DNA of 51,263 nt from sequence record PZ452599.1; one strand, 5' to 3'. The DNA comes from a phage. The notes under the pieces were generated by a model that was not told the origin of the DNA, did not search any database, and worked only from the letters and a program-made list of their open reading frames with translations. How positions within the stretch are numbered: position 1 is the stretch's first letter; each line of letters begins with the position of its first letter. Made by a program: the position numbers and the translations under genes. Shown piece by piece: positions 6,191 through 48,686 of the stretch.

Positions 6191-6210
6191 GTTTAACAAA
6201 AAGTGCTATC
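6191..6210. promoter_or_regulatory. reverse-oriented motif copy (GTTTAACAAAAAGTGCTATC) upstream of major capsid gene
   Basis: Located between the Ig-like ORF and terminator 6217-6241; function and direction unresolved. Confidence 0.3.
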
Positions 6211-9943: not shown

Positions 9944-9963
9944 CTTTTAACAAAAAGTGCTAT
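9944..9963. promoter_or_regulatory. reverse-oriented motif copy abutting RBS of tail chaperone gene
   Basis: CTTTTAACAAAAAGTGCTAT immediately followed by AAGGAGA and ATG 9978; contains TGCTATAAG resembling an extended -10. Confidence 0.3.
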
Positions 9964-9977
9964 AAGGAGATCTTGAG

Positions 9978-10295
9978 ATGGCAAAGATGAAACTAACGTT
10001 AGGCCCACTGCCTGATTTTAAACTGCCTGTTTCTTTCGTGCTTCCAAATGGTGATGAGCAAGTTATTGTTTTCACTGTGCGCCACAAGAAGGCAAGCGAG
10101 ATTCACGAACGATACACGGCAGAAAAGCCGATGAGCGACGTAGAAATGATCACCTTCCTTGCTTCCGGTTGGGATCTGGAAGATGAATTTAACGAGGAAA
10201 ACGTTGCTAAATTGCTGGATTATTACCCTTCTGCGTCATTATCGCTGACTGGTCATTATATGAAAGCACTTGCGGGGCAGCGGGTAAAAAACTAA
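9978..10295 (+). CDS. tail assembly chaperone (lambda gpG-like)
   Basis: 105 aa; AAGGAGA RBS; ends with slippery A_AAA_AAC directly before its TAA; -1 frame stays open to 10612. Confidence 0.7.
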   Translation: MAKMKLTLGPLPDFKLPVSFVLPNGDEQVIVFTVRHKKASEIHERYTAEKPMSDVEMITFLASGWDLEDEFNEENVAKLLDYYPSASLSLTGHYMKALAGQRVKN

Positions 10296-10612
10296 AGCGG
10301 GCGGTTTACCTGTTTTACCTCAAGCCGCCAACTGACGCACAATTAGAGGCCGTCGGCCTATCCCGTTCAGACTACGAAGGGGAGGAGCCGCCGGAGGTAA
10401 TTTTTGATGAATCAATGTTTCAATCTTGGGATCTGTTTTGCGCCATGCAGACGCAATGGAGATCGACTAGCGGCAGCGTGTATGGGTTCGACTATAACGT
10501 TTTGCCCATGCTTTTTGACATTTACAAGATTGATGATCGTGAGATGGCGCTAAATGATTTGCGCATCATGGAACAAAAGGCGCTAGAAATGATTCATTCA
10601 AACAAAACATAA
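9978..10612 (+). CDS. tail assembly chaperone frameshift product (gpGT-like; -1 shift at 10286-10292)
   Basis: -1 frame open from 10211 to 10612 overlapping the end of G; slippery heptamer AAAAAAC at 10286-10292; canonical position before the tape measure gene. Confidence 0.6.
10286..10292 (+). other. -1 programmed frameshift slippery heptamer A_AAA_AAC
   Basis: Heptamer sits in zero frame immediately before G stop codon 10293-10295; -1 frame is open through 10612. Confidence 0.6.
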
Positions 10613-27137: not shown

Positions 27138-27614
27138 TTAGCTATTCGTGCTGTTATCACCTTTGTAGAATCGTCCGCCTGGTTCGTAGTCTGAATTTTT
27201 GACTACGCGCAACATTTCGTATTTGTCGCAACGGGTAGTAAGTGGCTTGCCGTTAGAGTCAAACCGCAGATCTGGACGACAAAATGATGCGCGGTATCCT
27301 TTGCATCCATTATATTTGTAGTCGTTATGCACCTTTTGTGCTCCGGAGGCTGAAATCATACCACGCTTTCGCCATTGGTTAACGACTTGCTGAGATACGC
27401 GCAGACGTCGAGCCATAGCAGGAACACCGCCGTAATACTCGATCAGAATGTCAAGGCGAGATTTCAGGCTTGCTTTTACCTCATCTCGCAGGATAAGAAA
27501 TCCGGTTCGGTGTTTTCGTGGCTTTTTGTCTTTACCTCTTCGCGTTCCGTTGTTACCGTTAATAGTGCGCTTGTCGATCTCACCCGTAGACACTGCAATT
27601 CGTGCATCTTTCAT
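27138..27614 (-). CDS. putative HTH DNA-binding protein
   Basis: 158 aa; GAGGTG RBS; central helix-turn-helix-like segment ARRLRVSQQVVNQWRKRG; start abuts a motif copy. Confidence 0.45.
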   Translation of the reverse strand: MKDARIAVSTGEIDKRTINGNNGTRRGKDKKPRKHRTGFLILRDEVKASLKSRLDILIEYYGGVPAMARRLRVSQQVVNQWRKRGMISASGAQKVHNDYKYNGCKGYRASFCRPDLRFDSNGKPLTTRCDKYEMLRVVKNSDYEPGGRFYKGDNSTNS

Positions 27615-27626
27615 CTAGTCACCTCA

Positions 27627-27669
27627 TAGCATTTTTTGTTAAAACAGTTTATTGTAATGAGTCTATTAT
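27627..27669 (+). promoter_or_regulatory. motif-type promoter for helicase operon in divergent region
   Basis: TAGCATTTTTTGTTAAAAC at 27627-27645, 18-nt spacer, TATTAT 27664-27669; the same motif abuts the RBS of divergent gene 27138-27614. Confidence 0.5.
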
Positions 27670-27701
27670 ATACTCCAAATGGCATTTTTTAAAGGTTTAA
27701 G

Positions 27702-31186: not shown

Positions 31187-31229
31187 TAGCACTTTTTGTT
31201 AAAACGCCCGGCCTAGTGTCGGGCATAAT
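31187..31229 (+). promoter_or_regulatory. motif-type promoter
   Basis: Motif 31187-31205; spacer hairpin GCCCG...CGGGC; CATAAT 31224-31229; upstream of gene 31262. Confidence 0.5.
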
Positions 31230-34403: not shown

Positions 34404-34448
34404 AATATACCCGACAATAGGTCGGGCGTTTTAACAAAAAATGCTATT
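34404..34448 (-). promoter_or_regulatory. motif-type promoter
   Basis: Motif variant (AAAAAATGCTATT) 34428-34448; spacer hairpin CCCGAC...GTCGGG; TATATT -10; upstream of gene 34143-34367. Confidence 0.45.
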
Positions 34449-36537: not shown

Positions 36538-36565
36538 TCGTTAGCTTCTCCTTTGTGGGCCGTAA

Positions 36566-36610
36566 ATTTTAACGGCCCAATACTACCCCGTTTTGTCAAA
36601 AAGTGCTATT
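36566..36610 (-). promoter_or_regulatory. motif-type promoter (variant with TTGACA)
   Basis: Motif 36590-36610 (- strand reads AATAGCACTTTTTGACAAAAC); spacer hairpin GGGCCGTT...AACGGCCC; TAAAAT -10; upstream of P-loop gene. Confidence 0.5.
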
Positions 36611-37240: not shown

Positions 37241-37284
37241 TTATGCCAGGTTTTTACACCTGGCTTTTAACAAAAAGTGCTATT
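37241..37284 (-). promoter_or_regulatory. motif-type promoter
   Basis: Motif 37264-37284; spacer hairpin GCCAGG...CCTGGC; CATAAT -10; upstream of gene 36824-37210. Confidence 0.5.
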
Positions 37285-38929: not shown

Positions 38930-39210
38930 TATGCGATCCCAGTTACGTTAAAACTTACAGCCTTTGTTGCGCTAAATACATAAGCATCAACAGCGCCGCC
39001 AAATACACGAATTTTACCCTGGCCGTACTGCGCATTCATATTTCGCCAAACCGTTCTATTAGAGCAGAATGCGCTACCAGTCTTAATAAGCGTATCCATC
39101 TCTTTTCTTAGATCGCGATAGTCCAGCCAGAATCTAAAGGCACGCTGTTTAATTCGCGCCGCCTTGATTTTTTCTCTTGCGCTATTGAAATCATTCTTTC
39201 CGTATGCCAT
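38929..39210 (-). CDS. hypothetical protein
   Basis: 93 aa; overlapping start/stop with neighbours. Confidence 0.45.
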   Translation of the reverse strand: MAYGKNDFNSAREKIKAARIKQRAFRFWLDYRDLRKEMDTLIKTGSAFCSNRTVWRNMNAQYGQGKIRVFGGAVDAYVFSATKAVSFNVTGIA

Positions 39211-39407
39211 TAAATGATCTCCATGTATGTTTCAAAGCCATTTAACTTGAACAGGCCGTTTTCACATTTGCGCACGTTCCAAGTTAGCCCTGAGTGGTAC
39301 GCCTCCATATCATCAAGGTCAATGGTGATTTCAGCACCTTTCTTAAACAAACCTTTTTCGTGAGACTTGTCGCGCTTAACAACTTTAACATCAACCTGAT
39401 TTTCCAT
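39210..39407 (-). CDS. hypothetical protein
   Basis: 65 aa from ATG 39407 (GAGGA 7 nt upstream); track start 39458 would lie inside promoter motif 39463-39483. Confidence 0.5.
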   Translation of the reverse strand: MENQVDVKVVKRDKSHEKGLFKKGAEITIDLDDMEAYHSGLTWNVRKCENGLFKLNGFETYMEII

Positions 39408-39438
39408 CTTTAAATCCTCGCTTGTTGTCGATGGGTGT

Positions 39439-39483
39439 AATATACCATTCAGGCGCACATAGTTTTTAACAAAAAGTGCTATT
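39439..39483 (-). promoter_or_regulatory. motif-type promoter with conserved leader
   Basis: Motif 39463-39483; TATATT -10; leader ACACCCATCGACAACAAGCGAGGA nearly identical to that at 39915-39944. Confidence 0.5.
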
Positions 39484-39769
39484 AAACAACTTTTCCAGTT
39501 AAAGAGATAAGTTGCCTTGTGATTTTGTGGCGGCGATACTGACGCTCGACAACAGGAAGGTTTTCACCGATTTGATGACCAAAACAGATCGGCAATTCAC
39601 CTTCAAGGGATCGGAAGCCACCAAATTCAAGATCCCGCACTGGCTTAGCGCGCCAGGCTTCAATAAATCCGCGCTCGTCACGAGTGATATAGCGGTATAT
39701 ATTCGGGAGGGGCAATTGTATCCCCTCAAAATCCACTGTGTCGGTGTAGCTGTAAAACTTAGAACTCAT
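39482..39769 (-). CDS. hypothetical protein
   Basis: 95 aa from ATG 39769; track start 39820 overlaps an upstream small gene; stop inside motif copy. Confidence 0.45.
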   Translation of the reverse strand: MSSKFYSYTDTVDFEGIQLPLPNIYRYITRDERGFIEAWRAKPVRDLEFGGFRSLEGELPICFGHQIGENLPVVERQYRRHKITRQLISLTGKVV

Positions 39770-39912
39770 AGTCAACAACTCCAAACTCGTTAACGATTTG
39801 CGCCTTATAGAAGCCACCATTTTTCGCCAGGTTGTAACAAGCGGCTAAGGTTTCAAATTCGCGCGCTTCCGGCTGGCTGTTTTCGTGTTCCCAGGTAATC
39901 AGAGTAACCATT
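39763..39912 (-). CDS. hypothetical small protein (49 aa, not in ORF track)
   Basis: ATG 39912 with GAGGA RBS, downstream of motif promoter 39945-39989; leader nearly identical to that of gene 39210-39407. Confidence 0.45.
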
Positions 39913-39944
39913 TTCAAATCCTCGCATTCGTTGTCGATGCGTGT

Positions 39945-39989
39945 AATGTACAGGAATACGAGGATTGAGTTTTAACAAAAAGTGCTATT
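39945..39989 (-). promoter_or_regulatory. motif-type promoter with conserved leader
   Basis: Motif 39969-39989; TACATT -10; leader ACACGCATCGACAACGAATGCGAGGA. Confidence 0.5.
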
Positions 39990-40688: not shown

Positions 40689-40942
40689 TTTTTCTTCTCC
40701 TGCAATAAGCAAACATCATTGATAAAATCAGCACGGCCCTTAATGTTGCTGATGTGGAACGTCTTTTCAGCGTACAGGCCATCACCTTCAATCACGATCA
40801 TTACGCGAGTCGGTTTATTCACGGGCGCACACGAAAAGAGTGGTCGCACCGGAAGAAATTTAGTAGCCACATCCAGGTTAGCCCTGGCGGCCCTGCAAAA
40901 TGCCTCCGCCAGATCCAAATCATTTTCGGTAATCACCGCCAT
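40676..40942 (-). CDS. hypothetical protein
   Basis: 88 aa; start overlaps upstream stop. Confidence 0.45.
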   Translation of the reverse strand: MAVITENDLDLAEAFCRAARANLDVATKFLPVRPLFSCAPVNKPTRVMIVIEGDGLYAEKTFHISNIKGRADFINDVCLLQEKKKCWM

Positions 40943-41214
40943 TACTTCTTGATCTCCTCACTGATAAATTTCAGCACCTGACGCAAGAAAACCTCGTTGT
41001 TGATAGTCGCTGGCAATTCTTCTTTCACTTCTTGCGGCAGATAGATATTGCCGTGCCAGGTCAAGCAATCGTAGTTGATACGATAAGAGCAAAGCCACTC
41101 GCAATCGTTATCTGCTTCCCAAATACAGAGTTGCAGAACATCGCCAAAATCTTCAACAGTCAGATCCAGACCGTGACGCTTAGCGAAATTGAAAGTGGTT
41201 TTGCTGATGTTCAT
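40942..41214 (-). CDS. hypothetical protein
   Basis: 90 aa; GGAG RBS; first gene downstream of motif promoter 41249-41293. Confidence 0.5.
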   Translation of the reverse strand: MNISKTTFNFAKRHGLDLTVEDFGDVLQLCIWEADNDCEWLCSYRINYDCLTWHGNIYLPQEVKEELPATINNEVFLRQVLKFISEEIKK

Positions 41215-41248
41215 TGCTATCTCCTGAGCGGTTCGTTTTGATGTGTGT

Positions 41249-41293
41249 AATGTACCCGATCAGACGACCTGAGTTTTAACAAAAAGTGCTATT
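41249..41293 (-). promoter_or_regulatory. motif-type promoter with conserved leader
   Basis: Motif 41273-41293; TACATT -10; leader ACACACATCAAAACGAACCG; upstream of gene 40942-41214. Confidence 0.5.
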
Positions 41294-41322: not shown

Positions 41323-41413
41323 ATAATCAGAAGTAATCATTCGTAATCAAATCACGTCAAAATGATGATTGCCTTTGCAAATTTGATGAGAAAAGTAATC
41401 ACGTTTAATCATT
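41323..41413. repeat. cluster of short GTAATCA / TAATCA iteron-like repeats
   Basis: At least five copies in 90 bp inside the 600-bp non-coding region; a related TTAATCATTAAT element occurs at about 21035-21047. Confidence 0.45.
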
Positions 41414-42613: not shown

Positions 42614-42653
42614 CACTTTTTGTTAAAACGCCAGGTGCAAAGCCTGGCATAAT
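42611..42653 (+). promoter_or_regulatory. motif-type promoter
   Basis: Motif 42611-42629 (begins with stop codon of lipoprotein gene); spacer hairpin GCCAGG...CCTGGC; CATAAT 42648-42653. Confidence 0.5.
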
Positions 42654-44294: not shown

Positions 44295-44333
44295 CACTTT
44301 TTGTTAAAACTCAAATGTGGGGCCAGGTATAAT
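44292..44333 (+). promoter_or_regulatory. motif-type promoter
   Basis: Motif 44292-44310; TATAAT 44328-44333 lies in the loop of hairpin GGGCC...GGCCC; upstream of gene 44364. Confidence 0.5.
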
Positions 44334-44363
44334 GGCCCTACTTTCAACGAAGGAGATAAAACG

Positions 44364-45027: not shown

Positions 45028-45815
45028 AAAAATACACTTTCGAACTGTGGGGCAAGAAGTACGAATTAATCACCAGCAAGCCGATTGTTATCGTTGATCT
45101 GGACGGCACGCTATCGGAAGGATCGCATCGTTTGCATTTGCTGCCAACTGAAAACTTGCACCTTACGGAATCGTGGCGCGAGTTTAACAGGGCCGCCGCC
45201 GGAGATTCACCGATTAAAAGCACTATCGCGGTTATTAACGGTTTATGGGTGTCGGGATTTGCCATCGTCATCTTGACCGGACGCAGCGACGAGGTTCGCT
45301 ATGAAACCTGCAAATGGTTGAATGAGAACGGCGTGAAGTTTGACGAAATCATCATGCGCCGCCAGGAGGACAACCGAAAGGATACGGTTATTAAAGAAGA
45401 AGCCTTGCGCGCTATTGGCCTGGACAACATTGTTTGCGCCTTTGACGATTCGCCGAACGTGGTTAAGCACTTCCGCAGCTTGGGGATCACAACCTATCAG
45501 GTCACGGAATACGACAAGCCACACGCTCACATACAATCTCACGGCGTGGATGAATTGAAGTCAAAAATCGAATGCGAAGGCGAGCACTGTTTTAGTGTGG
45601 TTGATGGTAAATGTTTGCGTTGCGGCGTGGAATCAATCAAGATCACGAAGCGCGCCCGATTCGTCGGCAGCAAAGACAGCCTGGTCAATGCCAGCTTTAT
45701 CAAAGGCAAGGTTTATGATGTTCATAGCCATGATAAAAACCGATTCTTTTTGTGGGATGAAAAAGGTTTTGGCTGGTGCTTTAAGCATGACGACGGCGAT
45801 TTTGTTAATGCGTAA
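45024..45815 (+). CDS. HAD-family phosphatase with C-terminal zinc-ribbon / FxPGxxY-like domain
   Basis: 263 aa; HAD motif I VIVDLDGTL, motif II ILTGRSD, motif IV FDDS; C-terminal CxxC...CxxC followed by FIKGKVYDV...FLWDEKG. Confidence 0.6.
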   Translation: MKKYTFELWGKKYELITSKPIVIVDLDGTLSEGSHRLHLLPTENLHLTESWREFNRAAAGDSPIKSTIAVINGLWVSGFAIVILTGRSDEVRYETCKWLNENGVKFDEIIMRRQEDNRKDTVIKEEALRAIGLDNIVCAFDDSPNVVKHFRSLGITTYQVTEYDKPHAHIQSHGVDELKSKIECEGEHCFSVVDGKCLRCGVESIKITKRARFVGSKDSLVNASFIKGKVYDVHSHDKNRFFLWDEKGFGWCFKHDDGDFVNA

Positions 45816-45858
45816 TAGCACTTTTTGTTAAAACATCTTAACGGGCTTGCGGTATAGT
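45816..45858 (+). promoter_or_regulatory. motif-type promoter
   Basis: Motif 45816-45834; TATAGT 45853-45858 inside hairpin GGGCTT...AAGCCC; upstream of gene 45890. Confidence 0.5.
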
Positions 45859-45889
45859 AAGCCCATCAACAACAAACGAGGATTAAATC

Positions 45890-46729: not shown

Positions 46730-47320
46730 ATGAAACGAGACATTATCATCCTTAATGGGCCTCCAGGTTGTGGAAAGGACACTATTGCAGCTTACCTAAC
46801 GGGCCATCGTTACCCTGCTGTCAAGGCGTCATTCAAACAGCCGATGTTCGATATTGCGTTTTCCATGCTGGGAGTGTACCGATACGATGAATTTATGGAC
46901 CTGTACAACGACCGAGAACAAAAAGAAAAGCCTCAAGTTATTTTGGGCGGCAAGTCACCTCGACAATTCATGATCTGGATTAGCGAGGATGTAATGAAGC
47001 CAGTTTTTGGAGATCACTATTTCGGGCGTCGAATGGTTGAAGAGATTCACGAGATGTACCGAGATTTGGCGGTTGTGATCAGTGATGGCGGATTCCCCGA
47101 AGAAATCAAACCGCTGGTTAAGGCAGGGCATGAAGTGCATATTTGCCGATTGCATCGCGACGGCTTCACGTTTGCTGGCGATTCGAGAGACTACATTGAC
47201 CTGAGCGGTTATCACTATCGAATCCATCACTATGACTTCCACTTGCAGGACGGCAAACCGGAACTGGCTGTAAACGAGATCGTCAATGCTGTCAAATGGA
47301 AACACACGCAGATTAAATAG
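46730..47320 (+). CDS. P-loop nucleotide/nucleoside-monophosphate kinase (T4 gp1 dNMP kinase-like)
   Basis: 196 aa; Walker A LNGPPGCGKDT; stop is followed by a variant motif copy. Confidence 0.55.
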   Translation: MKRDIIILNGPPGCGKDTIAAYLTGHRYPAVKASFKQPMFDIAFSMLGVYRYDEFMDLYNDREQKEKPQVILGGKSPRQFMIWISEDVMKPVFGDHYFGRRMVEEIHEMYRDLAVVISDGGFPEEIKPLVKAGHEVHICRLHRDGFTFAGDSRDYIDLSGYHYRIHHYDFHLQDGKPELAVNEIVNAVKWKHTQIK

Positions 47321-47358
47321 CACGAATTGCTAAACGCGGGGCGCAATGCCTCGCTATA
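47321..47358 (+). promoter_or_regulatory. variant motif (TAGCACGAATTGCTAAAC) followed by TATAAT
   Basis: Begins with kinase stop TAG; TATAAT at 47353-47358; upstream of gene 47391. Confidence 0.4.
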
Positions 47359-47390
47359 ATGCAAACACCAATCAACGAGAGGAAATCACA

Positions 47391-48611: not shown

Positions 48612-48654
48612 TAGCACTTTTTGTTAAAACTTCCGCAAGGGCATTTGATAAAGT
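48612..48654 (+). promoter_or_regulatory. motif-type promoter
   Basis: Motif 48612-48630; GATAAA-like -10 inside hairpin AAGGGCA...TGCCCTT; upstream of gene 48687. Confidence 0.45.
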
Positions 48655-48686
48655 GCCCTTATTGAAGCGAAACAGAGGAAAGCGCA

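What the first reader, a model, noticed from the sequence alone, without database searches (positions are those of the whole stretch)
39410..39445. Three leftward promoters share a 25-nt -10 plus leader block
Downstream of three motif promoters the -10 and initial transcribed region are nearly identical: GTATATTACACCCATCGACAACAAGCGAGGA (39444-39413), GTACATTACACGCATCGACAACGAATGCGAGGA (39950-39918) and GTACATTACACACATCAAAACGAACCG (41254-41228), all read on the minus strand. This is conservation beyond what a promoter needs and points to a shared operator or RNA leader element that co-regulates these small genes.
Basis: seen in the sequence. Interest (0 to 1): 0.45.

Follow-up and report, generated by a model that had tools for sequence, protein, structure and literature searches.

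The report
Shared core of phage promoter cassettes
The three look-alike stretches are real, but they are the downstream half (-10 box, start site, first bases of the mRNA leader) of an ~80-bp promoter-plus-ribosome-site cassette that this T1-like coliphage carries about 20 times, and whose upstream half looks like a binding site for the host's MarA/SoxS/Rob stress regulators.

Summary
GTAYATTACACNCATCRAMAAC occurs at 39424-39445, 39930-39951 and 41234-41255 (minus strand), against a chance expectation of 0.00. A fourth, rightward copy lies at 45852-45873.

The block is not special to three genes. It is the -10 hexamer, a 6-nt discriminator, a C(-1)/A(+1) start and the first ~12 nt of a 25-28-nt A-rich, unstructured 5'UTR. 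It sits inside a multi-copy cassette headed by the published 21-nt direct repeat of TLS/T1 phages.

- **Downstream genes:** they are unrelated, so this is not a gene duplication.
- **Orthologues:** +1..+12 (ATCGAMAACGA) is as conserved as the repeat (0.93 against 0.97 pairwise identity). The TAYATT/ACAC part is the least conserved (0.55) and clade-specific.
- **RNA structure or operator:** there is no RNA structure, no Rfam hit and no discriminator/SD covariation.
- **Cassette edges:** these are mosaic breakpoints, as with the PeSL cassettes of T4-type phages.
- **T7 parallel:** the block resembles the start regions of T7 promoters A1 and A3.

New lead: the repeat fits the marbox consensus at 13-14 of 14 specified positions. 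It faces forward and lies 18 bp from the -10, exactly as at E. coli micF, a class II promoter. Binding was not tested.

The parts
39463..39482 (-). Promoter A: direct repeat read as a 20-mer, ATAGCACTTTTTGTTAAAAA (marbox-like, forward orientation)
   Evidence: Exact DR match. Marbox score 13/14, lying 18 nt upstream of the -10.
39439..39444 (-). Promoter A: -10 hexamer TATATT, preceded by TGg (extended -10)
   Evidence: Fixed 19-nt distance from the 18-mer DR. Invariant in 8 orthologues.
39433..39438 (-). Promoter A: discriminator ACACCC
   Evidence: It is the least conserved segment in orthologues (0.66). Variants seen are atgcgc, aagcgc and acatcc.
39408..39432 (-). Promoter A: inferred +1 (A at 39432) and 25-nt 5'UTR, AUCGACAACAAGCGAGGAUUUAAAG. 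The conserved initial transcribed sequence is 39421-39432 and the SD GAGGA is 39415-39419.
   Evidence: A(+1) is present in 88% and C(-1) in 75% of 404 cassettes, 7 nt after the hexamer. The UTR is unstructured. It aligns with the T7 A1 start site.
39210..39407 (-). Gene A, 65 aa, phrog_7421, function unknown. First gene of the unit driven by promoter A.
39969..39988 (-). Promoter B: DR / marbox-like 20-mer ATAGCACTTTTTGTTAAAAC
   Evidence: 13/14, 18-nt spacer
39945..39950 (-). Promoter B: -10 hexamer TACATT. There is no canonical TGn and no -35.
   Evidence: The sigma-70 consensus scan does not call it.
39912..39944 (-). Promoter B: discriminator ACACGC (39939-39944), inferred +1 A at 39938, and 27-nt 5'UTR AUCGACAACGAAUGCGAGGAUUUGAAA (SD 39919-39923)
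   Evidence: ITS identity is 0.93 across 36 orthologues.
39954..39966 (-). Promoter B: upstream arm (AATCCTCGTATTC, in the DR-to--10 spacer) of a 13-nt inverted repeat. It is complementary to the SD region.
   Evidence: the repeat finder reports arms at 39917-39929 and 39954-39966, 92% complementary. The read-through RNA folds at -19.9 kcal/mol, z -2.57. It is an outlier in the family.
39917..39929 (-). Promoter B: downstream arm (GAATGCGAGGATT) of the inverted repeat. It covers the SD of gene B.
39759..39911 (-). Gene B, 50 aa, phrog_4653, function unknown
41273..41292 (-). Promoter C: DR / marbox-like 20-mer ATAGCACTTTTTGTTAAAAC
41249..41254 (-). Promoter C: -10 hexamer TACATT
41215..41248 (-). 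Promoter C: discriminator ACACAC (41243-41248), inferred +1 A at 41242, and 28-nt 5'UTR AUCAAAACGAACCGCUCAGGAGAUAGCA (SD AGGAG 41221-41225)
   Evidence: It aligns with the T7 A3 start region (p=0.002).
40942..41214 (-). Gene C, 90 aa, phrog_6147, function unknown. Homologues also occur in T4-like, T5-like and other contigs.
45815..45889 (+). Fourth, rightward member of the same sub-type. It has the DR 20-mer, TATAGT (45853-45858), AAGCCC, +1 A at 45865, and the UTR AUCAACAACAAACGAGGAUUAAAUC.
   Evidence: 3 mismatches to the block. It is 0.80 identical to promoter A over -13..+12.

Best explanation
The 25-nt block is the downstream half of a portable promoter/RBS cassette about 80 bp long.

Each cassette reads as follows:
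- a 20-bp direct repeat (ATAGCACnnnTTGyTAAAAc)
- an 18-nt spacer
- a sigma-70 -10 hexamer, often TGn-extended
- a 6-nt discriminator ending in C
- an A start
- an A-rich, unstructured 5'UTR of 25-28 nt that begins AUCGA(A/C)AACGA and ends in a strong SD
- the ATG

Host RNA polymerase is inferred to start at A39432, A39938 and A41242. Each promoter would then drive a short operon of small early genes.

Two layers explain why the three look alike:
1. +1..+12 is kept by purifying selection in all cassettes. The most likely reason is efficient initiation and escape by E. coli RNA polymerase, together with an open, S1-friendly ribosome landing site. The whole UTR lies within the 30S footprint.
2. 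The TAYATT/ACAC flavour is shared because these neighbouring cassettes are recent relatives, through cassette duplication or gene conversion. Cassettes are the recombination joints at which gene modules are swapped.

The upstream repeat is inferred to be a class II activator site that replaces the -35, most likely for host MarA/SoxS/Rob (RamA in Klebsiella).

Shown: the anatomy, copy number, conservation profile, mosaic junctions and absence of structure. Inferred: the TSS, the reason for ITS selection and the identity of the protein that reads the repeat.
For: - **Family size and geometry:** there are 19 DR copies against 0.16 expected. Among 415 distinct cassettes from IMG/VR T1-like contigs, 355 have exactly 19 nt between the 18-mer DR and the -10. 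The consensus is tGgTATAAT.acC.CAtcgAAAcgAAa, with C(-1) 75% and A(+1) 88%. UTR length peaks at 24-26 nt.
- **Published repeat:** the TLS paper reports 21 copies about 76 nt upstream of start codons, function unknown (PMC11447400).
- **Conservation profile in B orthologues:** DR .97, spacer .57, -10 .74, discriminator .55, ITS .93, rest of UTR .69, CDS3 .77.
- **No CDS homology** among the three downstream genes.
- **No structure:** leaders are unstructured and there is no Rfam hit.
- **Mosaic junctions:** DNA upstream of cassette B is unrelated to the window in 29 of 35 orthologue loci, and upstream of C in 13 of 17. L129 has gene A fused behind the gene that precedes cassette B here.
- **T7 parallel:** T7 A1 (ATACTTACAGCC-A-TCGA) matches promoter A at 15 of 17 positions (shuffle p<0.0005). 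T7 A3 against promoter C gives p=0.002. The annotated T7 TSSs coincide with the inferred +1.
- **ITS without the DR:** a 165-kb contig has the same CATAAT-ACACCC-ATCGAAAC behind a canonical TTGACA-N17, so the block works without the DR (L183).
- **Marbox reading:** the consensus AYNGCACNNWNNRYYAAAYN comes from PMC2064960. The DR scores 13-14 of 14. The micF marbox ACAGCACTGAATGTCAAAAC is 15/20 identical, forward-facing and 18 bp from its -10. Class II sites cluster near -41 and lack a -35 (PMC10268841, PMC8811837). The sigma-70 scan finds no -35 for these promoters.
Against: - No transcript 5' ends are available for any T1-like phage, so the +1 is inferred from consensus geometry and the T7 analogy.
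- The sequence-specific conservation of +1..+12 in orthologues is stronger than a generic 'A-rich and unstructured' requirement predicts, so a dedicated reader (protein or RNA) is not excluded.
- The 11-mer CATCGAAACGA is not enriched in the window at up to 2 mismatches (19 against 18.2 expected).
- The T7 similarity p-values are modest after correction for 24 comparisons.
- The DR is far more conserved than the degenerate marbox requires (positions 3, 8-12 and 20).
- A phage Cro-like regulator with its own canonical promoter exists (27138-27614) and could be the real reader.
- T1-like phages grow well in unstressed lab cells, where MarA and SoxS are scarce.
Confidence: 0.7

Rival explanations
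1. The conserved +1..+12 segment is a dedicated regulatory site. It would be either a DNA operator over the start site or a 5'-terminal RNA tag, read by a phage or host protein. Candidates include the Cro-like regulator at 27138-27614, or a RegA-like translational repressor or nuclease. Such a reader would switch all cassette-driven genes on or off together during infection.
For: - In orthologues, +1..+12 is as conserved as non-synonymous codon positions and nearly as conserved as the DR, which is more than composition alone explains.
- The motif is anchored to the start site rather than the SD when UTRs are longer (gene C orthologues).
- The phage encodes an HTH regulator that has its own DR-independent promoter.
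Against: - The segment has no dyad symmetry beyond TCG..CGA.
- Across paralogues it is only a soft consensus, 0.2-1.3 bits per position.
- The same start region occurs in T7 A1/A3 and behind a canonical promoter in a 165-kb phage, neither of which is known to share such a factor.
- KP15 has the cassette, but no 170-kb record appears among the sampled hits of the regulator (sampling incomplete).
Confidence: 0.17
2. The similarity has no function at all. The three blocks would be recent copies of one cassette, made by local duplication or gene conversion, that have not yet diverged.
For: - The trio-specific part (TAYATT + ACAC) occurs in only 11 of 421 cassettes and only in close relatives.
- That part evolves fastest in orthologues.
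- Cassettes demonstrably recombine with one another (L129).
- Promoter A's discriminator differs even in a contig whose gene A protein is 100% identical (L125).
Against: - This cannot explain +1..+12. That segment stays at 0.93 identity across orthologues whose spacers (0.57) and synonymous sites (0.77) have diverged.
- The same segment is shared with T1, Vibrio phage Vc1 and Klebsiella phage KP15.
Confidence: 0.1
3. The block is part of a structured cis-regulatory RNA (riboswitch, attenuator or thermosensor) in the leader.
For: Only promoter B offers any support. In read-through RNA, a 13-bp helix pairs the promoter spacer with the SD region.
Against: - The leaders from +1 fold at -0.9 to -1.9 kcal/mol with z about 0.
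- Across 89 representative cassettes the mean z is +0.2.
- There is no Rfam match at E<=1.
- There is no discriminator/SD covariation (p=0.65) and no spacer/SD covariation across the family (p=0.29).
Confidence: 0.03

Closest known systems
21-nt direct repeats of phage TLS/T1/Rtp/Rogue1 (Kropinski and co-workers, Phage 2024, PMC11447400)
   Same: The sequence is the same (aaATAGCACnnnTTGnTAAAA). The orientation follows transcription, and the distance to start codons is about the same (~76 nt). The three promoters of this finding each begin with one of these repeats.
   Different: That paper treats the repeat alone. It offers stoperator, enhancer-site or UP-element readings and found only three sigma-70-like promoters. 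It does not describe the fixed 18/19-nt link to a -10 box, the CA start or the conserved leader analysed here.
Class II marbox promoters of the MarA/SoxS/Rob/RamA regulon, e.g. E. coli micF
   Same: - The 20-mer fits AYNGCACNNWNNRYYAAAYN at 13-14 of 14 specified positions.
- It is 15/20 identical to the micF marbox.
- It faces forward and lies 18 bp from the -10 hexamer, with its centre near -41.
- There is no recognisable -35, and the -10 and start site are canonical.
   Different: - Binding and activation are untested.
- The phage repeat is nearly invariant at positions where marboxes are degenerate.
- No MarA-like gene is present in the phage.
- The conserved ATCGAAACGA leader has no counterpart at micF.
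PeSLs, promoter(early)-stem-loop cassettes of T4-type phages (Arbiol 2010 PMC2839356; Comeau 2014 PMC4122927)
   Same: - Both are repeated composite cassettes: upstream AT-rich part, promoter, stem-loop, then SD and start codon.
- Both flank small ORFans.
- Cassette edges are the breakpoints of gene gain, loss and replacement.
- Stem-loops covary in two thirds of the cassettes here.
   Different: - PeSLs have a -35 with a 17-nt spacer and a stem-loop upstream of the promoter.
- Here the -35 is replaced by the repeat, and the stem-loop lies inside the spacer or encloses the -10.
- The three promoters of this finding have no local stem-loop.
- The host phage is a siphovirus.
Phage T7 early promoters A1 and A3 (strong E. 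coli RNA polymerase promoters)
   Same: The -10-proximal, discriminator and start sequences are shared. T7 A1 reads ATACTTACAGCC-A-TCGA and promoter A reads ATATTACACCC-A-TCGA. T7 A3 reads CCAC-A-TGAAACGA and promoter C reads ACAC-A-TCAAAACGA. The annotated T7 start sites fall on the same A.
   Different: T7 A promoters have consensus -35 hexamers, no repeat, and no SD within 30 nt. The resemblance may be convergence on a good initiation context.
Phage T5 early promoters with conserved transcribed region (Bujard laboratory, 1980s; from memory, not checked here)
   Same: Strong phage promoters for host polymerase whose homology extends to about +20 and affects late steps of initiation.
   Different: The sequence is different (AUAAAUUUGAGAGAGGAG).

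Membership tests
TLS/T1-type 21-nt direct repeat element | Match to aaATAGCACnnnTTGnTAAAA | tested here: met
   There are exact 18-mer cores at 39464-39481, 39970-39987 and 41274-41291. The window holds 19 copies against 0.16 expected. The consensus is from PMC11447400.
TLS/T1-type 21-nt direct repeat element | Oriented with transcription, intergenic, about 76 nt upstream of a start codon | tested here: met
   The distance from the start of the 21-mer to the ATG is 77-80 nt for A, B and C.
Class II marbox (MarA/SoxS/Rob/RamA) promoter | 20-bp site matching AYNGCACNNWNNRYYAAAYN (RE1 GCAC, RE2 YAAA) | tested here: met
   The score is 13/14 at all three promoters and 14/14 at 47317+. The window has 25 sites with the right spacing against 1.85 in shuffles. 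The consensus was verified in PMC2064960.
Class II marbox (MarA/SoxS/Rob/RamA) promoter | Forward orientation, overlapping the -35 region, centred near -41 | tested here: met
   The site spans -50..-31 relative to the inferred +1. The 18-bp gap to the -10 is identical to micF, measured on NC_000913 with the micF 5' end as +1. This depends on an inferred TSS.
Class II marbox (MarA/SoxS/Rob/RamA) promoter | No recognisable -35 hexamer, with a canonical -10 and start site | tested here: met
   The sigma-70 scan calls none of the three promoters. The family consensus is TGnTATAAT with a CA start.
Class II marbox (MarA/SoxS/Rob/RamA) promoter | Bound and activated by MarA, SoxS, Rob or RamA | not testable with these tools
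   This needs EMSA or in vitro transcription, or a marA soxS rob mutant host. No paper in the library links marboxes to phage promoters.
PeSL (promoter-early stem-loop) mobile regulatory cassette | Repeated composite motif ending in an SD and start codon, placed at ORFan boundaries that coincide with mosaic breakpoints | tested here: met
   Homology with relatives ends at the cassette in 29/35 (B) and 13/17 (C) loci. L129 shows a cassette-to-cassette deletion.
PeSL (promoter-early stem-loop) mobile regulatory cassette | Sigma-70-like -35/-10 pair with a 17-nt spacer | tested here: not met
   There is no -35 at 16-18 nt. The TTGyTA of the repeat lies 21 nt from the -10.
PeSL (promoter-early stem-loop) mobile regulatory cassette | Adjacent stable stem-loop | tested here: not met
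   The family as a whole has spacer hairpins or hairpins enclosing the -10 in 52 of 80 representatives, with covariation p<1e-4. Promoters A, B and C fall in the 'none' class. B instead has a 13-nt spacer/UTR inverted repeat.
Structured cis-regulatory leader RNA (any Rfam family) | Significant covariance-model match or a stable conserved fold | tested here: not met
   There were 0 Rfam matches at E<=1. Leader MFE is -0.9 to -1.9 kcal/mol with z about 0.
   blastp gives E>=4 between the three products and there is no blastn match beyond 12 nt. The products belong to three different PHROGs.

The most novel reading that the evidence does not exclude
The repeat that heads these promoters is a genuine class II marbox. 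T1-like phages, and a few T4-like Slopekviruses that carry the same cassette, would then wire about 20 promoters per genome to the host's MarA/SoxS/Rob/RamA antibiotic- and stress-response activators. The conserved -10/CA/ATCGAAACGA block would be the matching RNA-polymerase half of this activator-dependent promoter. Phage gene expression would sense, and possibly titrate, the host's multidrug-resistance regulators.
Probability: 0.4. Interest if true: 0.75.

Novelty: new variant of a known kind. Interest (0 to 1): 0.45.

Why it matters
The block itself is ordinary promoter biology. It is a multi-copy expression cassette, and the similarity among the three promoters does not reveal a private regulon.

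Placing it in context does three useful things:

1. It turns a repeat whose function the 2024 TLS paper left open (stoperator, enhancer or UP element) into a defined promoter architecture. That architecture predicts start sites which can be checked with a single 5'-end mapping experiment.
2. This would link the growth of a very common group of coliphages and Klebsiella phages to antibiotic-stress regulators, which is relevant to phage-antibiotic combinations. TLS also uses TolC, a mar-regulon product, as its receptor.
3. It shows PeSL-like cassette-mediated gene shuffling in siphoviruses.

The compact cassette (activator site, -10, 25-nt leader) is also a ready-made strong expression part.

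Tried and rejected
- **Gene duplication including the CDS:** no similarity.
- **Anti-SD in the discriminator, active only in read-through RNA:** own-partner duplex energy is -2.65 against -2.71 kcal/mol for permuted partners, p=0.65.
- **Family-wide spacer/SD pairing:** p=0.29. Only promoter B, and weakly C, stand out.
- **Structured leader RNA:** z about 0; Rfam found nothing.
- **Enrichment of the short ITS motif CATCGAAACGA:** 19 against 18.2 expected at up to 2 mismatches, so it is uninformative.
- **A phage-encoded MarA/SoxS/Rob homologue:** hmmsearch with a profile built from remembered MarA, SoxS and Rob sequences against all 392 ORFs of 50 aa or more gave a best E of 1.8. The seeds came from memory, so this is a weak negative.
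- **T1 'transcriptional regulator' ST23 as an AraC-type protein:** it gives only weak, sub-threshold Pfam matches to Cro-type HTH (P22_Cro) and none to AraC-type families. Its homologue is in the window. Whether KP15 has one was not settled (one search shows only a sample).
- **Horizontal transfer of a gene together with the cassette into KP15:** the KP15 genes next to the cassette have no homologue in the T1-like loci held.
- **Readings of the repeat considered from memory and dropped without formal tests:**
  - CRP, FNR, Fis, IHF and ArcA sites (poor fit)
  - Lrp (fits the arms only)
  - a UP element (about 9 bp out of register)
  - a -35 with a 21-nt spacer
  - MerR-type spacer dyads (the dyads covary, so they are not sequence-specific sites)
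  - sigma-32 or sigma-E -10 elements in the start region
  - rrn/lambda boxA
  - a sigma-dependent pause element in the ITS
- **Literature:** searches for T1-like transcript mapping found nothing.
Full report
**What the window is.** The 2.7 kb around the finding is 98% identical to Escherichia phage tiwna (Drexlerviridae, Warwickvirus), and 233 phage records match it. It is the published 21-nt direct repeat (DR) of phage TLS, aaATAGCACnnnTTGnTAAAA. That repeat has 21 copies in TLS, follows the direction of transcription and lies about 76 nt upstream of start codons. The authors also see it in T1, Rtp and Rogue1. They left its function open (stoperator, enhancer site or UP-like element) and found only three sigma-70-like promoters in TLS (PMC11447400).

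**Checking the observation.** The three sequences are present on the minus strand.
- GTAYATTACACNCATCRAMAAC hits 39424-39445, 39930-39951 and 41234-41255, plus a fourth site at 45852-45873 on the plus strand. There were no hits in 100 shuffles.
- Over -13..+12 the three are 0.72-0.84 identical. Other cassette pairs in this genome average 0.44 +/- 0.11. The rightward promoter at 45816+ is 0.80 identical to promoter A.
- Similarity ends at the ATG. The downstream products (65, 50 and 90 aa) are unrelated and fall in three different PHROGs of unknown function.

**Anatomy.** Aligning all DR sites of the window shows a fixed layout: the DR, 19 nt, a -10-like hexamer, 6 nt ending in C, an A, then TCGAAAC-like sequence, a GAGGA-type SD and the ATG.

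An IMG/VR scan for the exact DR returned 120 stretches, almost all from ~50-kb T1-like contigs.
- They hold 415-421 distinct cassettes, and 355 of them have exactly 19 nt between the DR and the -10.
- Anchored on the -10, the consensus is tGgTATAAT.acC.CAtcgAAAcgAAa.a.ggaaaaa.
- C is at -1 in 75% and A at +1 in 88%.
- The distance from that A to the ATG peaks at 24-26 nt.

The inferred starts are A39432, A39938 and A41242, with 5'UTRs of 25, 27 and 28 nt. The same cassette precedes a helicase, a methylase and many small ORFs on both arms of the genome. It is also found in T1 itself and in Vibrio phage Vc1.

**What is selected and what is not.** I fetched orthologues of genes A, B and C with 400 nt of flank and aligned their upstream regions. 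Mean pairwise identity for the 36 distinct B orthologues is:

| Segment | Identity |
|---|---|
| DR | 0.97 |
| Spacer | 0.57 |
| -10 hexamer | 0.74 |
| Discriminator | 0.55 |
| +1..+12 | 0.93 |
| Rest of UTR | 0.69 |
| Codon positions 1+2 | 0.93 |
| Codon position 3 | 0.77 |

A and C behave the same way. Two conclusions follow.
- The first ~12 transcribed bases (ATCGAMAACGA) are under purifying selection.
- The trio-specific part (TAYATT plus ACAC) is the fastest-evolving part of the cassette. Other clades have TATTAT-ctcttc, CATAAT-agcctc or TATAGT-aacccc at the orthologous promoter. Only 11 of 421 cassettes carry TAYATT/TATAAT + ACAC: eight are the window's A-C sites and their orthologues, one is an orthologous variant of C, and two precede other genes.

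The resemblance in the discriminator is best read as recent common descent or local homogenisation, not as a conserved signal.

**RNA-level tests.**
- The leaders from +1 are essentially unstructured, at -0.9, -1.9 and -1.5 kcal/mol with z about 0.
- Across 89 representative cassettes the mean z is +0.2, and the UTRs are 46% A and 14% U.
- Rfam finds nothing at E<=1.
- I tested whether the C-rich discriminator acts as an anti-SD in read-through RNA. Own-partner duplexes are no better than permuted ones (p=0.65).
- Spacer/SD pairing is not a family property either (p=0.29).
- Promoter B is a strong exception. A 13-nt inverted repeat has arms at 39954-39966 and 39917-39929 and is 92% complementary. 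It pairs the promoter spacer with the SD region. The read-through RNA folds at -19.9 kcal/mol with z -2.57. The tiwna version gives -22.4 kcal/mol, z -5.4 against other SDs.
- A plausible but untested consequence is that gene B is translated mainly from transcripts that start at its own promoter.
- Family-wide, the spacer does covary with the discriminator (-4.23 against -2.48 kcal/mol, p<1e-4). Hairpins that enclose the -10 occur in about a third of cassettes (25 of 80) and hairpins inside the spacer in about 40% (31 of 80, four having both); 28 of 80 have none. A, B and C are in the 'none' class.

**DNA-level comparison with known strong promoters.** In the T7 record the annotated starts of promoters A1 and A3 fall on the A of GCC-A-TCGAGAGG and CAC-A-TGAAACGACAG.
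- T7 A1 aligns with promoter A at 15 of 17 positions: ATACTTACAGCCATCGA against ATA-TTACACCCATCGA (shuffle p<0.0005).
- T7 A3 aligns with promoter C at p=0.002 (24 comparisons were made).
- A 165-kb contig carries a gene C homologue behind a canonical TTGACA-N17-CATAAT followed by ACACCCATCGAAAC (L183). The block therefore works without the DR.
- When UTRs are longer, the motif stays next to the start site rather than the SD.

Together these points favour a role at the polymerase or 5'-end level (initiation, escape, an open 5' end) over an SD-linked element.

**Cassettes as recombination joints.**
- DNA upstream of cassette B is unrelated to the window in 29 of 35 orthologue loci.
- DNA upstream of cassette C is unrelated in 13 of 17.
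- In L129, gene A sits directly behind the gene that precedes cassette B here, which is the product expected from cassette-to-cassette recombination.
- This is the behaviour described for PeSL cassettes in T4-type phages (PMC2839356, PMC4122927). It explains why neighbouring cassettes can share a flavour.

**The upstream repeat as a marbox.** This goes beyond the finding's coordinates, but the repeat is part of the same promoters.
- Read as a 20-mer, ATAGCACTTTTTGTTAAAAC fits the MarA/SoxS/Rob consensus AYNGCACNNWNNRYYAAAYN (PMC2064960) at 13 of 14 specified positions. The fit is 14/14 at 47317+.
- The positions that vary among DR subtypes (8-10 and 14) are the degenerate positions of the consensus.
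- On the E. coli K-12 chromosome, the micF marbox ACAGCACTGAATGTCAAAAC is 15/20 identical. It faces forward and lies 18 bp from TAGAAT, with the micF 5' end 7 nt further on. The phage cassette has the same 18 bp.
- The literature places class II sites in the forward orientation near -41, over a missing -35, with normal -10 elements and start sites. The consensus scan indeed finds no -35 for promoters A, B or C.
- A scan for marbox (at least 12/14) plus 17-19 nt plus a -10-like hexamer gives 25 sites in the window and 22 in T1, against 1.85 in shuffles.
- The whole cassette also occurs in the T4-like Klebsiella phage KP15, annotated there as 'putative middle promoter'.
- No MarA-like ORF is detectable in the window (weak test).
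- No paper in the library connects marboxes with phage promoters.

Against this reading:
- The DR is much less degenerate than host marboxes.
- T1-like phages thrive in unstressed cells.
- A phage Cro-like regulator (27138-27614, 58% identical to T1 ST23) has its own canonical promoter (TTTAAA-17-TATAAT) and could be the true reader.
- Its homologues were seen only in 44-52-kb records in a sampled list.

**Verdict.** The inference of a private operator or leader for three small genes is not supported. The block is the polymerase-proximal half of a genome-wide, family-wide promoter/RBS cassette. It combines a strongly selected initial transcribed sequence with a fast-drifting discriminator that these neighbouring copies happen to share. 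The mechanism I consider most likely has three parts:
- initiation by host sigma-70 polymerase at the conserved CA, helped by an activator bound to the marbox-like repeat;
- an A-rich start that favours escape;
- an unstructured 25-nt leader that favours ribosome loading.

What is shown is the anatomy, the statistics, the conservation and the mosaicism. What is inferred is the start site, the cause of selection on +1..+12 and the identity of the activator.

Noticed in passing
L002 1504-1580 and 1150-1240 (Klebsiella phage KP15, GU295964 ~10010-10075 and ~10350-10440): The complete cassette (TAGCACTTTTTGTTAAAA-N19-TATAGT-N7-TCGAAACAAGGGAGGA-ATG) occurs in a T4-like Slopekvirus, annotated as 'putative middle promoter'. 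A second copy has a terminator-like hairpin and the leader CATCGAAACGAAACA, identical to window 34446-. About 70 nt at 80% identity is shared across two phage families.
   Followed up: partly
L183 ~300-400 (IMG/VR contig of 164,706 nt): A homologue of gene C sits behind a canonical TTGACA-N17-CATAAT promoter followed by ACACCCATCGAAAC. This is the same -10/discriminator/leader block without the direct repeat.
   Followed up: no
window 39917-39929 and 39954-39966: A 13-nt inverted repeat brackets the -10, discriminator and +1..+9 of promoter B. It would mask the SD of gene B in read-through transcripts. It is the strongest such pairing among 80 representative cassettes.
   Followed up: partly
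window 37245-37264, 42629-42647, 31205-31223, 34409-34428; L166 vs L167: GC-rich hairpins lie inside the DR-to--10 spacer, or enclose the -10 (45834-45864, 44309-44336, 48630-48660, 36560-36590). The stems change by whole-stem replacement between relatives (CCCCGCgcgaGTGGGG against CCGGAAcggaTTCCGG). Their function is unknown; on the opposite strand they are followed by TTTTAAC.
   Followed up: partly
window 9945-9962 (-) and 6191-6208 (-); T1 L004 ~18850 (-): Direct-repeat promoters point against the structural-gene direction and have no SD/ATG downstream. The one at 9962- is followed about 45 nt later by a GC hairpin plus T-run (GGGGCGCAACGCCCCTTGTTTT) and is conserved in T1. It may produce a short antisense or non-coding RNA.
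   Followed up: no
window 27138-27700: A Cro-like HTH regulator gene (158 aa, 58% identical to T1 ST23) is transcribed leftward from a canonical TTTAAA-17-TATAAT promoter (27693-27665). That promoter overlaps the divergent direct-repeat promoter of the helicase gene (27627+).
   Followed up: partly
window 47317-47390 (+): An extra cassette was missed by the first motif search. Its repeat is the 'GAA' subtype, ATAGCACGAATTGCTAAACG. It matches the marbox consensus at 14/14 and precedes a 126-aa ORF with no PHROG match.
   Followed up: no
window 41333-41401 (-): Three TGATTAC copies, plus GATTA/GATCAC variants, lie within ~70 nt of the non-coding stretch just upstream of promoter C, between the leftward and rightward early gene blocks. 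The whole window has 12 copies against 6.4 expected. It may be a binding array or origin-like region.
   Followed up: no
L129 300-400 (IMG/VR 2974632794): Gene A directly follows the 3' end of the gene that precedes cassette B in the window, and the repeat is one T shorter. This is an apparent deletion of the gene B module by recombination between two cassettes.
   Followed up: partly
phage collection hits: Twenty records named 'Campylobacter phage' (host C. jejuni, ~47-50 kb) match this T1-like coliphage region and its regulator gene. They are probably mislabelled or contaminant T1-like phages.
   Followed up: no
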